Position numbers: made by a program | Origin: Escherichia coli | GTDB taxonomy: Bacteria > Pseudomonadota > Gammaproteobacteria > Enterobacterales > Enterobacteriaceae | Assembly: GCF_003790525.1 (NCBI RefSeq) | Contig: NZ_CP033635.1 | Length of the DNA: 64,000 nt | Reading direction: 5' to 3' (one strand) | Shown: positions 21,001 to 24,000 of the stretch, piece by piece | Layout: every line of letters starts with the position of its first letter | Position numbering within the stretch: position 1 is the first letter of the stretch

Positions 21001-24000
21001 CCTCACAGCCCGTCAGTACCCCAGTCTGCGCGCAGAAAACCGGTTGGATCCACGGTTTAAATTCATGGTTTTCCAACGCCAGACTGATGGCTTCAGGCGT
21101 GACGATATGGTGATAGTGATTATCATTAATATATTTGTGACTATTATTACCCGTGGCGGATATGATCTCCGGATTGTACTGAAAGAAAATATCCCGCCAG
21201 AAAGTAATATCGCTCTGAATCCCCAGTTTCTCAAAGAGCTGTTTCTTTTGATGTGAAATGGTCTTTGCACTGCGATTTCTGTACTGTGATATTTCTGTTA
21301 CAGACATTCCCTGCATCAGCAGCTTGAGTAGCAGTCGTTCTTTCTCGGATACGCTACCAGGCAATGACAAATGAACCGTTGTACCGAACTCTTGCAGAAA
21401 AACACGAAAATCACATGAATTCATGAACACACCTTTTATCTTTTATCGCTGTTCAGTATGAGTGATTACCTGTGGATTCCTGAGCACACATAAGGGGTAA
21501 CCATAAACATTAGCGATGCCATACGTATAACATCCCACATCACTATCAAGAAGATTATCTTTACCTCTGATGCTCGCTCAAAAACAGTTACGCTAAATAC
21601 CTTAAAAAGGTAATCACAAGTCAAACTCAGGAGATAATCACGCAAGAATGCAATATTAAAATTCAGATACTCATTTTTGGTAATAAAGAAGTAGTTGGAC
21701 TATTTCGATATTTATAATTTCCCACTACGTATTGACGCCCATTCATGAGTAAAGGCGCATTATATGAATTTAACAATCCAGATCAACTGAAAATACCTCA
21801 ACCTCATAAACACATAGCGTCAACATTCAATGACATAATGAGTAAAGATGTTGGTTATGCATACACGTCATTACTCTATGCCTATCCCTTAACAACCTGC
21901 TTTTTAAGACTGAATCCATTCAGCAATAGATAGCCAACATTATAACAATGACAATAAAAACAATATTTAAAACAATCAATAAAATATCAGACACAGACAA
22001 TTAAACCTTAAACAACAAACGGTTACATTGATTTTAGTTGATTTGCGCTACGCGTTCCCCATGAATAAAGCGTCATTTCAAATTAGCACCAATATTTACA
22101 TTAAATAAGACTAAGCTTATTGAACATTCACAACAGTCCAAACGTAGGTTTTGGGCTTCAATAGTTCTTTTCTTTTTTATTATCTGTTGCCTGGCAATCA
22201 TCAATCGATACTAAGGGCTTAACTGTACAGATATAACGTATCAAGAGGTAAGAGAAACCGCGCCATATGCAGACATGGCGCGGTTTTATGCAAAAACAAT
22301 CACGCGTCCGGGAACATCACGCTATGGCCCGGCGCTTCACGATGGAGATGGATAAAGTTAAGATGCCGCTCGTACTGGTCAAGAATATCGGTGATCACCT
22401 GCTCTTTGCTGTAGTCCATCAGGTCGTTGCCCTGGCTGCCTTCTAACAGGAAGGTTTCCAGCCGGTAGTAGGTCGATTTACCGCTACGTGCGCGGTAGGT
22501 AAAGCCCGGCACCGAATATTGCTGCGGCCAAATCTGATAGACAAAGTTTTGCTCTTCGCCCATATGCACCAACAAATCCAGATGCCCCAACTGTTGTCCC
22601 TCTTCCGGCGGCAGGCTTTTTAGCTCCACGTACGCGCCGCGCAACCGCAACTCCTGCGCCACTTCTTCCATTGCCGGGTAACAGACCGTCTCCATCATCT
22701 GTTTAGTGTAACGCGTGCCCGGATAATTCATCAGGCGCGAGAGACGTTTTTTCCAGCTCAGGCGATCCTGAAGCCCCAGCGGTCGCGGTGCGGTATCGCG
22801 GTTGGCACTTTCACGGCGGTAATCTTCTACCTTCAGAGATTTATACAACCCCGCCATCACGAAGAAGATCACAAAGCTGAACGGCAGGCCCATAATCACC
22901 GTGGTGTTTTGCAGCGCGGATATCCCGTTGGTCATCAGCATGCCGAGCGTCAGCAGGCCAATCGCCACCGACCAGAAGACGCGCAGCCAGCCGGGGGCGT
23001 CGCTGTTGATATCTTTAAGCTGCGAGGTGAAATTCCCCAGCACCAGCGCCCCGGAGTCCGCCGAGGTCACATAAAACAGCAGGCCAGTAATGGTGGCGAC
23101 GGAGGCGCTAAAGGTAAACGCCGGATACTGCGCCAGCAGGCTGTAGAAGCCGCGCTCCGGATGGACCATCGCTTCCTCGGCAAATGCCGCGCCGCCGTGG
23201 ATGATTTCATACAGCGCGCTATTGCCGAACACCGAGAGCCATAACAGCGTGAAGGTAAACGGAATAATCAACGTGCCCAGCACGAACTGGCGAATGGTAC
23301 GCCCACGCGAGATACGCGCCAGGAACAAGCCAACAAACGGCGACCATGCCACCCACCATGCCCAGAAGAAGAGCGTCCAGTTATTCATCCACTCAACCGG
23401 ACGGTCGAAGGCAAAACTGTTGAGCGTCATGCCCATAAAGCGATTCATATAGTCGCCAACGTTCAGCACCAGCGCATTAAGCAGGAACGAGGTGTCGCCC
23501 ATAAACAGCACGAAAAGGATCAATCCCAGCGCCAGCGCAACGTTAAGTTCCGATAACACACGAATCCCCTTATCGACACCGGAGGTGACAGAGATCGTGG
23601 CGATGATCACCGACAAGGCGATCAGTGCCGCTTTCGCCGCCATTGAATCGGGAATATCAAACAGTACGCTCAAGCCATAGTTAAGCTGCACCACACCGAT
23701 ACCGAGCGTAGTGGCAATACCGAAGATGGTGCCGATCACCGCTGCAATATCCACTGAGTGACCTATCGGCCCGTTAATCCGTTTACCGAAGATCGGGTAC
23801 AGCGCCGAGCGGATGGTGAGCGGCAAATTATAACGATAACTAAAGTATCCGAGCGCCATGCCCATCAGCGCATACATCGACCAGCCGGTTAAGCCGTAGT
23901 GAAACAGCGTCCAGACCATCGCCTGACGCGCGGCCTCAATCGTCTGACCCGCGCCTTCCGGCGGCTGCATATACTGCGTTACCGGTTCGGCTACGGAGAA

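What the first reader, a model, noticed from the sequence alone, without database searches (positions are those of the whole stretch)
21431..22299. 870-bp AT-rich ORF-free intergenic region between pdeL and betT
This unusually long non-coding stretch with many A/T tracts lies upstream of the pdeL start and downstream of betT. It has room for a complex silenced promoter (H-NS type) or an unannotated small RNA. The only ORF called here (21745-21933) has no ribosome-binding site and low-complexity composition.
Basis: inference. Interest (0 to 1): 0.3.

Follow-up and report, generated by a model that had tools for sequence, protein, structure and literature searches.

The report
Known H-NS-silenced pdeL control region
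This long AT-rich gap is the already-studied control region of the E. coli c-di-GMP switch gene pdeL (silenced by H-NS, switched on by Cra and PdeL itself), here in its B2-lineage version, so it is real but largely ordinary.

Summary
Between betT (24333..22300, minus strand) and pdeL (21424..20336, minus strand) lie 875 non-coding bases at 34.7% G+C. This is the longest gap in the first 50 kb of the window.

It is not unexplored. It is the orthologue (93% identity) of the E. coli K-12 pdeL/yahA regulatory region. Published work on K-12 shows H-NS, Fis, IHF and RNA polymerase binding, H-NS silencing, and Cra plus PdeL co-activation that gives bistable expression.

I mapped the K-12 elements onto the window:
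- betT terminator
- distal PdeL box (CIB), 22101-22124
- an intact orthologue of the 24-aa small protein YahV, 21920-21994
- Cra box, 21910-21924
- promoter P1, 21759-21786
- a leader of about 325 nt

Comparison with two other Escherichia lineages shows constraint on the Cra box, CIB, P1 and the proximal leader. yahV, every other small ORF and the Cra-adjacent PdeL box (CDB) are not constrained. CDB differs at 4 of 13 bases in this allele. I found no sign of a small RNA.

One side finding may be new. The same Cra box and P1 module sits upstream of the ehaA adhesin gene in 26% of E. coli genomes.

The parts
22247..22290 (-). betT intrinsic terminator. The stem has 12-nt perfect arms (22255-22266 and 22275-22286), an 8-nt loop and a T-rich tail. 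It is hairpin-symmetric, so it also looks terminator-like on the plus strand.
   Evidence: Inverted repeat I2. My own hairpin and T-tail scan gives dG -16.3 kcal/mol on the minus strand and -13.6 on the plus strand. This 42-bp piece is the only part of the region shared by megablast with ehaA-type genomes.
22101..22124 (-). CIB, the Cra-independent PdeL box, TTCAATAAG-CTTAGT-CTTATTTAA. Its palindrome core AATAAG-N6-CTTATT lies at 22104-22121. In K-12 the left half overlaps an H-NS site for which PdeL and H-NS compete.
   Evidence: Located from K-12 EMSA oligos 4991/4997 and the figure legend stating 10 bp upstream and 33 bp downstream of CIB. The palindrome has 0 mismatches and is the only perfect match in the 64 kb; three other sites match with 2 mismatches. 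Both half-sites are identical in the window, K-12 and Escherichia sp. E1V33; SCPM-O-B-8794 has one flank change. Divergence is 0.033/0.10/0.167 against synonymous 0.087/0.196/0.285.
21920..21994 (-). yahV orthologue: 24 codons plus stop, GTG start, product (M)SDILLIVLNIVFIVIVIMLAIYC. There is an alternative TTG start at 22000, with TAAGG at 22006-22010. The TGA stop lies inside the Cra box.
   Evidence: The ORF is listed. It aligns to the annotated 'protein YahV' of K-12-like genomes. YahV-SPA was detected in K-12 (PMC6001520). It has 8 nucleotide and 7 amino-acid differences from K-12, all non-synonymous. The frame is broken in E1V33 and SCPM-O-B-8794. It diverges at or above the synonymous rate.
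21910..21924 (-). Cra (FruR) box, GCTGAATGGATTCAG.
   Evidence: Identical to the K-12 box that was scrambled in strain AB2400 and used in EMSA oligo 4695. Exact match in the window. It fits the Cra consensus RSTGAAWCSNTHHW with 0 mismatches. It is invariant in all 9 Escherichia sequences compared, both IGR-type and ehaA-type.
21896..21908 (-). Position of CDB, the Cra-dependent PdeL box. K-12 has CTTAATGAGTGGG and the window has CTTAAAAAGCAGG, so 4 of 13 bases differ.
   Evidence: The K-12 CDB is defined by scrambling oligo 5028 and EMSA oligo 4695. The box is not conserved in E1V33, SCPM-O-B-8794 or ehaA-type sequences. Around this site E. coli genomes fall into two discrete haplotypes: 1721 are at least 95% identical to the window and 1994 are 80-90% identical.
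21759..21786 (-). pdeL promoter P1: -35 TTGATC (21786-21781), 16-bp spacer, -10 TATAAT (21764-21759). The inferred start site is near 21752. The only GATC of the region lies in the -35 hexamer.
   Evidence: This is the best sigma-70 match in the region, 10 of 12. In K-12 the RNAP-recruitment fragment ends just after this -10 (oligo 4283), and the 'P1' mutant oligo 5032 flanks these hexamers. The site is conserved across IGR-type and ehaA-type sequences. The start site itself is inferred, not mapped here.
21425..21752 (-). pdeL leader (5' UTR) of about 325 nt. The proximal 110-175 nt (21425-21599) are the best-conserved long stretch of the region. A TGAACA/TGTTCA pairing could cover the bases between the Shine-Dalgarno sequence and the AUG.
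   Evidence: Length follows from the P1 position and the RefSeq start codon. Divergence of 21425-21599 is 0.011/0.143/0.143, and of the last 110 nt 0.018/0.091/0.118, against synonymous 0.087/0.196/0.285. Folding z-score is -1.28. The RNAalifold covariation term is -0.12. Function is unknown; the structure is a weak inference.
21745..21933 (+). It is not a gene; it runs antisense over P1, the CDB position and the Cra box.
   Evidence: No Shine-Dalgarno sequence lies upstream. Stops interrupt the frame in E1V33 and SCPM-O-B-8794. There is no NCBIfam match. No RefSeq genome inspected annotates it.
20336..21424 (-). pdeL: a LuxR-type HTH domain plus an EAL c-di-GMP phosphodiesterase domain. This is the gene controlled by the region.
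   Evidence: RefSeq annotation of the identical genome. The protein is 99% identical to the K-12 protein in both domains.

Best explanation
The region is the cis-regulatory region of pdeL, in the allele carried by B2-like E. coli. It works as a long, AT-rich, nucleoid-protein-coated silencer and anti-silencer unit.

Reading along the minus strand:
1. betT transcription ends at a strong hairpin terminator.
2. About 350 bp upstream of the promoter lies a palindromic PdeL box (CIB). In K-12 this box overlaps an H-NS site.
3. Next comes a poorly conserved stretch that happens to encode the 24-aa YahV peptide.
4. A perfect Cra box is centred about 165 bp upstream of the start site. In K-12 a second PdeL box (CDB) sits directly beside it.
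5. Promoter P1 (TTGATC-16-TATAAT) follows.
6. A leader of about 325 nt ends at the pdeL AUG.

In the K-12 model, H-NS (with Fis and IHF) keeps P1 silent. Cra bound to its box helps PdeL bind. At low c-di-GMP, PdeL tetramers bridge CDB and CIB, displace H-NS and recruit RNA polymerase. This positive feedback gives bistable pdeL expression.

Shown here by sequence: all elements except CDB are present and under purifying selection.

Taken from K-12 literature: protein binding, silencing and bistability.

Inferred: that the B2 allele behaves the same way, possibly with weaker Cra-dependent PdeL binding because CDB has diverged.
For: - **Orthology and flanking genes:**
- **AT-richness and exceptional length:**
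- **Cra box:** exact in the window.
- **CIB palindrome:** exact, and the only perfect match in the 64 kb.
- **P1:** the best promoter match, coinciding with the K-12 'P1' and RNAP-fragment oligos.
- **Phylogenetic footprint:** in two further Escherichia lineages the Cra box, CIB, P1 and proximal leader diverge 2-8 times more slowly than pdeL synonymous sites, and the spacers diverge as fast or faster.
- **K-12 ChIP:** FIS, H-NS, IHF and RNAP bind the yahA regulatory region (PMC1636352).
- **K-12 genetics:** hns derepression, Cra and PdeL co-activation, CIB/CDB and bistability (10.1101/2021.10.01.462762). H-NS repression is restated in 10.1101/2022.01.19.477023.
- **B2 strain:** in CFT073, pdeL RNA and protein are higher at 37 C than at 23 C (PMC12890032).
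Against: - No binding or expression data exist for this exact allele.
- The CDB, which the K-12 work found strictly required for c-di-GMP control, differs at 4 of 13 bases here and is not conserved in any other lineage. The K-12 circuit may therefore not transfer unchanged.
- The start site of P1 is inferred from consensus and oligo positions. The papers likely to hold start-site mapping (Yilmaz 2020, Reinders 2016) were not available.
- Simple H-NS, IHF and Fis consensus scans are not enriched in the region. These motifs are too degenerate for that result to mean much.
- The Cra box lies about 165 bp upstream of P1, which is unusually far for direct polymerase recruitment.
Confidence: 0.88

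Rival explanations
1. The region encodes an unannotated small RNA or a structured cis-regulatory RNA. Candidates are a riboswitch- or thermometer-like element in the 325-nt leader, or an antisense RNA opposite yahV.
For: - The proximal leader is more conserved than synonymous sites.
- A long hairpin and a TGAACA/TGTTCA pairing near the Shine-Dalgarno sequence and AUG can form in all four lineages, mostly maintained through one-sided, wobble-compatible changes.
- A weak plus-strand promoter-like site at 21948-21976 lies antisense to yahV.
- The betT hairpin could terminate plus-strand transcripts.
- pdeL is thermoregulated in CFT073.
Against: - No Rfam family matches at E <= 1.
- Leader folding energy is not distinguishable from shuffles, z = -1.28, with 8 of 100 shuffles folding as well.
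- The covariation term is -0.12 kcal/mol and only 2 of 83 pairs show double changes.
- No convincing internal terminator was found.
- The antisense promoter hexamers are weaker in K-12.
- No paper in the searchable library links pdeL to an sRNA.
- Thermoregulation is equally expected from H-NS.
Confidence: 0.07
2. The region is mostly a functionless evolutionary scar: leftover AT-rich DNA from an ancient replacement at the betT-pdeL junction (the alternative allele carries the ehaA adhesin gene). H-NS binds it simply because it is AT-rich, and only the short promoter matters.
For: - About half of the region (yahV, the yahV-CIB spacer, the Cra-P1 spacer) evolves at or above the synonymous rate.
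- 26% of E. coli genomes replace it completely with ehaA plus flanks.
- No small ORF is conserved.
- In one strain an IS1 truncates it.
Against: - Discrete islands far from the promoter are conserved across species. The Cra box, 165 bp upstream, is invariant, and the CIB half-sites, 350 bp upstream, are conserved.
- Cra-box to -10 spacing is held at 157-160 bp in all seven sequences.
- Mutating these sites changes expression in K-12.
- The leader is constrained.
Confidence: 0.04
3. The main function of the region is to express YahV, a small hydrophobic membrane peptide. This could be a type I toxin-like module or an osmotic-stress helper linked to betT.
For: - The 24-codon ORF is intact in the window and strongly hydrophobic.
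- YahV-SPA is made in K-12 (PMC6001520).
- A pangenome study proposed an osmotic or motility role from co-localisation (PMC9976479).
Against: - All 8 nucleotide differences between the K-12 and B2 alleles are non-synonymous.
- The frame is destroyed in E1V33 and SCPM-O-B-8794.
- Its DNA diverges faster than synonymous sites.
- No family model exists.
- PGAP does not annotate it in B2-type genomes.
- It occupies only 75 of 875 bp.
- No conserved antisense RNA features were found.
Confidence: 0.03

Closest known systems
pdeL (yahA) regulatory region of E. coli K-12 MG1655: H-NS-silenced, activated by Cra and PdeL, bistable (Reinders et al. bioRxiv 2021; Grainger et al. 2006)
   Same: - Same chromosomal position between betT and pdeL.
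- Same length (875 vs 874 bp) and 93% identity.
- Identical Cra box, identical CIB half-sites, and identical P1 -35 and -10 hexamers.
- Nearly identical leader, 97%.
- PdeL protein is 99% identical in both the N-terminal (HTH-containing) part and the EAL domain.
   Different: - The part upstream of P1 is only 89.9% identical.
- The CDB has 4 of 13 substitutions.
- YahV has 7 of 24 amino-acid changes.
- K-12 has a second GATC near CIB that the window lacks.
- No experiments exist on this allele.
O-island 15 / ehaA locus of E. coli O157:H7 and other ehaA-carrying Escherichia
   Same: - It occupies the same slot between the betT terminator and pdeL.
- It carries the identical 15-bp Cra box and a near-identical core promoter (ATATTTTGAGTTGATTTG...ACATATAATGCGC).
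- Cra-to--10 spacing is the same, 157-158 vs 160 bp.
- The last 11 bp before the pdeL ATG are shared.
   Different: - The window has no ehaA and no recognisable ehaA remnant.
- The sequence between the conserved islands cannot be aligned.
- The ehaA-type has no 325-nt pdeL leader. Instead it has ehaA, its own terminator and a 110-nt spacer.
- Its PdeL-like palindrome lies 23 bp downstream of the Cra box rather than 190 bp upstream.
- Its pdeL N-terminal 95 residues are only 80-82% identical.
Classical H-NS silenced and counter-silenced enterobacterial promoters with extended regulatory regions (bgl, proU, csgD, LEE1). Recalled from general knowledge, not tested here.
   Same: A long AT-rich intergenic region, co-occupancy by H-NS, Fis and IHF, a dedicated activator acting as anti-silencer from distant sites, and temperature dependence.
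   Different: The anti-silencer is the gene's own product. It is a c-di-GMP-degrading enzyme whose oligomeric state reads c-di-GMP, which gives a bistable switch. It also needs a metabolic co-activator, Cra.
YahV (b4730), a 24-aa small membrane protein of K-12
   Same: Same position, length and start-codon type. It is hydrophobic throughout, and 17 of 24 residues are identical.
   Different: It is not annotated in B2-type genomes. There is no evidence of coding constraint.

Membership tests
pdeL regulatory region (K-12 type) | Lies between the betT stop and the pdeL start, on the same strand as both genes | tested here: met
   RefSeq annotation of the 100%-identical genome and of K-12-like genomes.
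pdeL regulatory region (K-12 type) | Cra box GCTGAATGGATTCAG upstream of the promoter | tested here: met
   Exact match at 21910-21924. It fits the Cra consensus with 0 mismatches.
pdeL regulatory region (K-12 type) | Distal palindromic PdeL box (CIB), AATAAG-N6-CTTATT | tested here: met
   Exact match at 22104-22121, the only perfect match in the 64 kb. One spacer base differs from K-12.
pdeL regulatory region (K-12 type) | Cra-dependent PdeL box (CDB), CTTAATGAGTGGG, next to the Cra box | tested here: inconclusive
   The window has CTTAAAAAGCAGG, so 4 of 13 bases differ. Which bases PdeL needs is not known, because the published mutant scrambles all of them.
pdeL regulatory region (K-12 type) | Promoter P1, TTGATC-N16-TATAAT | tested here: met
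   Located at 21786..21759 on the minus strand, 10 of 12 matches. It is identical to K-12.
pdeL regulatory region (K-12 type) | In vivo occupancy by H-NS, Fis and IHF, and derepression in an hns mutant | not testable with these tools
   Shown only for K-12 (PMC1636352; 10.1101/2021.10.01.462762). Indirect support comes from thermoregulation of pdeL in the B2 strain CFT073.
Small RNA or structured RNA (Rfam families) | Match to a covariance model, or significant conserved structure together with a terminator | tested here: not met
   No Rfam match at E <= 1. Folding z = -1.28. Covariation term -0.12. No convincing internal terminator.
YahV small protein | Intact 24-codon hydrophobic ORF at the orthologous position | tested here: met
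   21920..21994 (minus), 17 of 24 residues identical to K-12 YahV.
YahV small protein | Evidence of selection for the protein: conserved reading frame and an excess of synonymous change | tested here: not met
   0 synonymous and 8 non-synonymous differences from K-12. The frame is broken in two other Escherichia lineages. Divergence is at or above the synonymous rate.
ehaA / O-island 15 locus | Presence of the ehaA autotransporter gene between betT and pdeL | tested here: not met
   No similarity to ehaA in the window beyond the shared flanks. The window carries the alternative allele.
Type I toxin-antitoxin (small hydrophobic peptide plus antisense RNA) | Conserved toxin ORF with a conserved overlapping antisense RNA gene (promoter plus terminator) | tested here: not met
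   The ORF is not conserved. The only antisense promoter-like site scores 9 of 12 and is weaker in K-12. Toxicity was not testable.

The most novel reading that the evidence does not exclude
The 'pdeL promoter' is an ancient Cra-box-plus-P1 control module shared by two long-lived alternative alleles of this locus.

In about 26% of E. coli genomes (including O157:H7 and O104:H4) and in E. whittamii, the same module sits directly upstream of the adhesin gene ehaA. There it carries a full PdeL-type palindrome beside the Cra box. EhaA-mediated adhesion would then be wired to the Cra / PdeL / c-di-GMP bistable switch.

Within the window's allele, two further untested twists are possible:
- The Cra-adjacent PdeL box has diverged, which may change the switch in B2 strains.
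- The only GATC of the region lies in the -35 hexamer of P1. This would allow direct Dam-methylation input and could help explain the 8-fold drop of pdeL in a K-12 dam mutant.
Probability: 0.3. Interest if true: 0.5.

Novelty: already known. Interest (0 to 1): 0.2.

Why it matters
PdeL is a c-di-GMP phosphodiesterase and transcription factor. Its bistable expression has been proposed to set population-level choices between motility, biofilm formation and phage sensitivity. The region examined here holds the cis-logic of that switch.

For the scan, the main value is negative.

The modest added value is comparative.
- The footprint analysis independently recovers the experimentally defined Cra box, CIB and P1.
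- It shows that the CDB and yahV are not conserved.
- It flags a conserved proximal leader of unknown function.
- It reveals that the same control module precedes the EhaA adhesin gene in EHEC-type genomes. That is a testable link between c-di-GMP and Cra signalling and adhesion.

Tried and rejected
- **Rfam scan** of 20000-25000 at E <= 1: nothing.
- **Tool terminator scan:** found none and even missed the betT hairpin. My own hairpin and T-tail scan found the betT terminator as the only strong site, plus weaker hairpins of -7 to -14 kcal/mol.
- **Leader RNA folding and RNAalifold** on four lineages: no significant stability, no covariation.
- **Consensus scans** for H-NS (TCGATAAATT), IHF (WATCAANNNNTTR) and Fis: not enriched and uninformative.
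- **All 11 small ORFs tested** for conservation: none stays open in both other Escherichia lineages. An 18-codon frame within the invariant leader block (M-A-S-L-M-F-M-V-T-P...) stays open, but this is a trivial consequence of nucleotide conservation, and its few changes are mostly non-synonymous.
- **Is the region a decayed ehaA?** BLAST and local alignment found no ehaA-derived sequence. Only the terminator, the Cra box, P1 and the last 11 bp are shared.
- **Type I toxin-antitoxin reading of yahV:** rejected for lack of conservation.
- **A second proximal promoter** (TTGAGC-16-GATAAT, 21581..21554): its -10 is not conserved in other lineages.
- **The 20-bp palindrome at 21515-21534**: not conserved.
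- **Literature gaps:** the papers most likely to contain the mapped start site (Yilmaz et al. 2020, PMC8095459; Reinders et al. 2016, PMC4719445) are not held. A 2007 'yahV' mention turned out to be a different gene, a typo for yhaV.
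Full report
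**1. What is there**

The window is E. coli. The finding's 869 bases are 100% identical to strain CFSAN061771, 99.7% to Nissle 1917 and about 93% to K-12-like strains. RefSeq annotation of the identical genome puts pdeL at 20336..21424 and betT at 22300..24333, both on the minus strand. The intergenic region is therefore 21425..22299, which is 875 bp.

- G+C is 0.347 against 0.496 for the window, and only 0.67% of equal-length windows are as AT-rich.
- A/T tracts of 4 or more are nearly twice as dense as in the window overall.
- It is the longest of about 41 intergenic gaps in the first 50 kb, the next being 565 bp.

**2. It is a known regulatory region**

Full-text searches show that the K-12 orthologue has been studied directly.

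- Grainger et al. 2006 (PMC1636352) list the yahA (= pdeL) regulatory region among the few targets bound by FIS, H-NS and IHF together. [quoted passage not shown]
- Reinders et al. (bioRxiv 10.1101/2021.10.01.462762) treat the whole intergenic region as the pdeL promoter region and report the following.
  - Cra (Kd 49 nM) binds a Cra box.
  - PdeL binds an adjacent Cra-dependent box (CDB, 76 nM) and a distal Cra-independent palindrome (CIB, 573 nM).
  - H-NS competes with PdeL at CIB.
  - Cra and PdeL recruit RNA polymerase.
  - c-di-GMP controls PdeL oligomerisation, so expression is cooperative, hysteretic and bistable.
- A second preprint restates H-NS repression of pdeL.
- In the B2 uropathogen CFT073, the allele class of the window, pdeL RNA and protein are higher at 37 C than at 23 C (PMC12890032). 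This is what is expected of an H-NS-silenced gene.

**3. Mapping the elements onto the window**

The figures of the preprint are not held, so I recovered the sites from the oligonucleotide table of its supplement and aligned K-12-like DNA with the window (sequence re-read). On the minus strand:

| Element | Window coordinates | Notes |
|---|---|---|
| betT terminator | 22255-22286 | 12-bp perfect stem |
| CIB, TTCAATAAGCTTAGTCTTATTTAA | 22101-22124 | palindrome AATAAG-N6-CTTATT exact; only perfect match in 64 kb |
| yahV orthologue | 21994..21920 | intact |
| Cra box, GCTGAATGGATTCAG | 21924..21910 | exact; Cra consensus 0 mismatches; the yahV stop codon lies inside it |
| CDB position | 21908..21896 | K-12 CTTAATGAGTGGG, window CTTAAAAAGCAGG |
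| Promoter P1, TTGATC-16-TATAAT | 21786..21759 | best sigma-70 match, 10 of 12 |

The hexamers of P1 are flanked by the K-12 'P1' mutagenesis oligo. The published RNA-polymerase-recruitment fragment ends just downstream of them.

With a start site near 21752 (inferred), pdeL has a leader of about 325 nt. The Cra box is centred near -165 and CIB near -360.

**4. Which parts are constrained**

A genome-collection scan with PdeL found full-length orthologues only in Escherichia. Two further lineages carry the same type of region: Escherichia sp. E1V33 and strain SCPM-O-B-8794. Both lack the bet operon.

I used pdeL synonymous divergence as the neutral yardstick. Values are given for window vs K-12-like / E1V33 / SCPM-O-B-8794.

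| Segment | Divergence |
|---|---|
| pdeL synonymous sites (yardstick) | 0.087 / 0.196 / 0.285 |
| Cra box | 0 / 0 / 0 |
| CIB | 0.033 / 0.10 / 0.167 |
| Core promoter | 0.021 / 0.104 / 0.146 |
| Proximal 175 nt of the leader | 0.011 / 0.143 / 0.143 |
| yahV | 0.107 / 0.365 / 0.419 |
| yahV-CIB spacer | 0.165 / 0.408 / 0.412 |
| Cra-P1 spacer | 0.092 / 0.352 / 0.346 |

The first four non-yardstick segments are clearly constrained. The last three evolve at or above the neutral rate. The footprint thus recovers, without using the experiments, the experimentally defined Cra box, CIB and P1.

It also shows two things not stressed in the literature I could read. The CDB is not conserved in any lineage other than K-12-like E. 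coli. A long proximal leader segment is conserved without a known role. Around the Cra box and CDB, E. coli genomes fall into two discrete haplotypes: 1721 genomes are at least 95% identical to the window and 1994 are 80-90% identical.

**5. ORFs**

Thirteen ORFs of 20 aa or more overlap the region. None remains open in both other Escherichia lineages.

It has no Shine-Dalgarno sequence and no family match.

yahV is a special case. It is annotated in K-12-like genomes, and YahV-SPA was detected by immunoblot (PMC6001520). The window keeps the frame and the hydrophobic character. However, all 8 nucleotide differences from K-12 are non-synonymous, and the frame is destroyed in E1V33 and SCPM-O-B-8794. 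It looks like a young, unconstrained, translated ORF embedded in regulatory DNA.

**6. Small RNA or structured RNA**

- There is no Rfam match at E <= 1.
- The leader's minimum free energy is within shuffle expectation, z = -1.28.
- RNAalifold on four lineages gives a covariation term of -0.12 kcal/mol. A long hairpin, and a TGAACA/TGTTCA pairing next to the Shine-Dalgarno sequence and AUG, are kept mainly by wobble-compatible single changes.
- The only strong terminator-like hairpin is that of betT.

This alternative is not excluded for the conserved leader, but nothing positive supports it.

**7. Evolutionary context (side finding)**

About 1500 genomes match only the 42-bp betT terminator. 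In these, for example FORC_028, the 3984-bp autotransporter gene ehaA (O-island 15 of O157:H7; PMC8565820) occupies the slot. In total 1402 of 5426 genomes carry this upstream region and 3650 carry the window's type.

BLAST sees no homology between the two types apart from the terminator and the last 11 bp before the pdeL ATG. A sensitive local alignment and a motif-anchored alignment tell a different story. The ehaA upstream region contains the identical Cra box and a near-identical core promoter. Cra-to--10 spacing is 157-160 bp in all seven sequences compared. These features are also conserved in O157:H7, O104:H4 and E. whittamii.

Twenty-three bp downstream of the Cra box, the ehaA-type carries AATAAGAC(G/A)ATTCTTAT. 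This is a PdeL-box-like palindrome.

Other observations on the two alleles:
- The divergent haplotype extends into pdeL. Residues 1-95 are 80-82% identical between types, while the EAL domain is 98% identical.
- E. albertii carries a decayed ehaA.
- ehaA has its own terminator ahead of pdeL.

I found no paper in the searchable library that connects ehaA with Cra in E. coli. The prediction that EhaA is under Cra and PdeL control is therefore an inference to be tested, not a result.

**8. A lead noticed in passing**

The only GATC in the 875 bp lies in the -35 hexamer of P1. The other lineages and the ehaA-type have TTGATT instead. pdeL is among the five most strongly decreased transcripts in a K-12 dam mutant, log2FC -3.08 (PMC11741368).

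The same mutant also loses flhDC and flagellar expression. Through reduced PdeH and raised c-di-GMP, that would switch pdeL off indirectly. The direct reading is therefore unproven.

**9. Verdict**

The 'complex H-NS-silenced promoter' reading is right and already documented for the K-12 orthologue. The 'unannotated small RNA' reading finds no support.

The feature is already known, so interest for a discovery scan is low. The residual novelty lies in three places:
- allele differences, namely the diverged CDB in the B2 lineage;
- the conserved leader of unknown function;
- the control module shared with ehaA.

Noticed in passing
L004 4471-5042 (FORC_028); L053, L054, L009, L015; corresponds to window 21759-21924: In 1402 of 5426 E. 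coli genomes (including O157:H7 and O104:H4) and in E. whittamii, the betT-pdeL slot holds the adhesin gene ehaA. Its upstream region has the identical Cra box and a near-identical P1 promoter at the same spacing (157-160 bp). It also has a PdeL-box-like palindrome, AATAAGACGATTCTTAT, 23 bp downstream of the Cra box. This predicts Cra/PdeL/c-di-GMP control of EhaA.
   Followed up: partly
window 21100-21424 (pdeL codons 1 to about 110); L050 4375-5463: The two alleles of the locus differ deep into pdeL. The N-terminal 95 residues are 80-82% identical between the IGR-type and the ehaA-type, while the EAL domain is 98% identical. The same split is seen across Escherichia species, which suggests an old polymorphism maintained or exchanged between species.
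   Followed up: partly
window 21781-21784: The only GATC (Dam site) in the 875-bp region lies inside the -35 hexamer TTGATC of pdeL P1. pdeL is among the five most decreased transcripts in a K-12 dam mutant (PMC11741368), which that paper does not discuss. An indirect route through reduced flhDC and pdeH exists.
   Followed up: partly
window 21425-21599 (minus strand): The proximal 110-175 nt of the pdeL leader are 2-8 times more conserved than pdeL synonymous sites across three Escherichia lineages. No known function, no significant RNA structure and no conserved coding signal were found.
   Followed up: partly
L008 1-1185 (E. albertii NBRC 107761): E. albertii carries the ehaA-type promoter followed by only fragments of ehaA (three pieces totalling about 700 bp) before pdeL. 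This is a decayed adhesin gene at the same locus.
   Followed up: partly
L006, L007, L009 (Escherichia sp. E1V33, SCPM-O-B-8794, E. whittamii): These lineages lack the whole betTIBA operon (window 22300-28760). The pdeL upstream region abuts DNA corresponding to window position 28760. E. whittamii keeps only a 67-bp betT 3' remnant with the terminator.
   Followed up: no
L005 3430-4175 (strain E66); window about 21855: In one E. coli genome an IS1 element is inserted in the pdeL upstream region, just upstream of P1. The DNA up to rclR, including the Cra box, CIB and the bet operon, is missing.
   Followed up: no
window about 50700-51800: An even more AT-rich stretch (875-bp windows down to 33.0% G+C) covers ykgR, ykgM and ykgO and extends toward ecpR. 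This is another region expected to be bound by nucleoid proteins.
   Followed up: no
window 22255-22290: The betT terminator hairpin is symmetric and is followed by a T-run on both strands (GTTTCTCT on minus, GTTTTATG on plus). It could also stop any plus-strand (antisense) transcription that arises in the AT-rich region.
   Followed up: no
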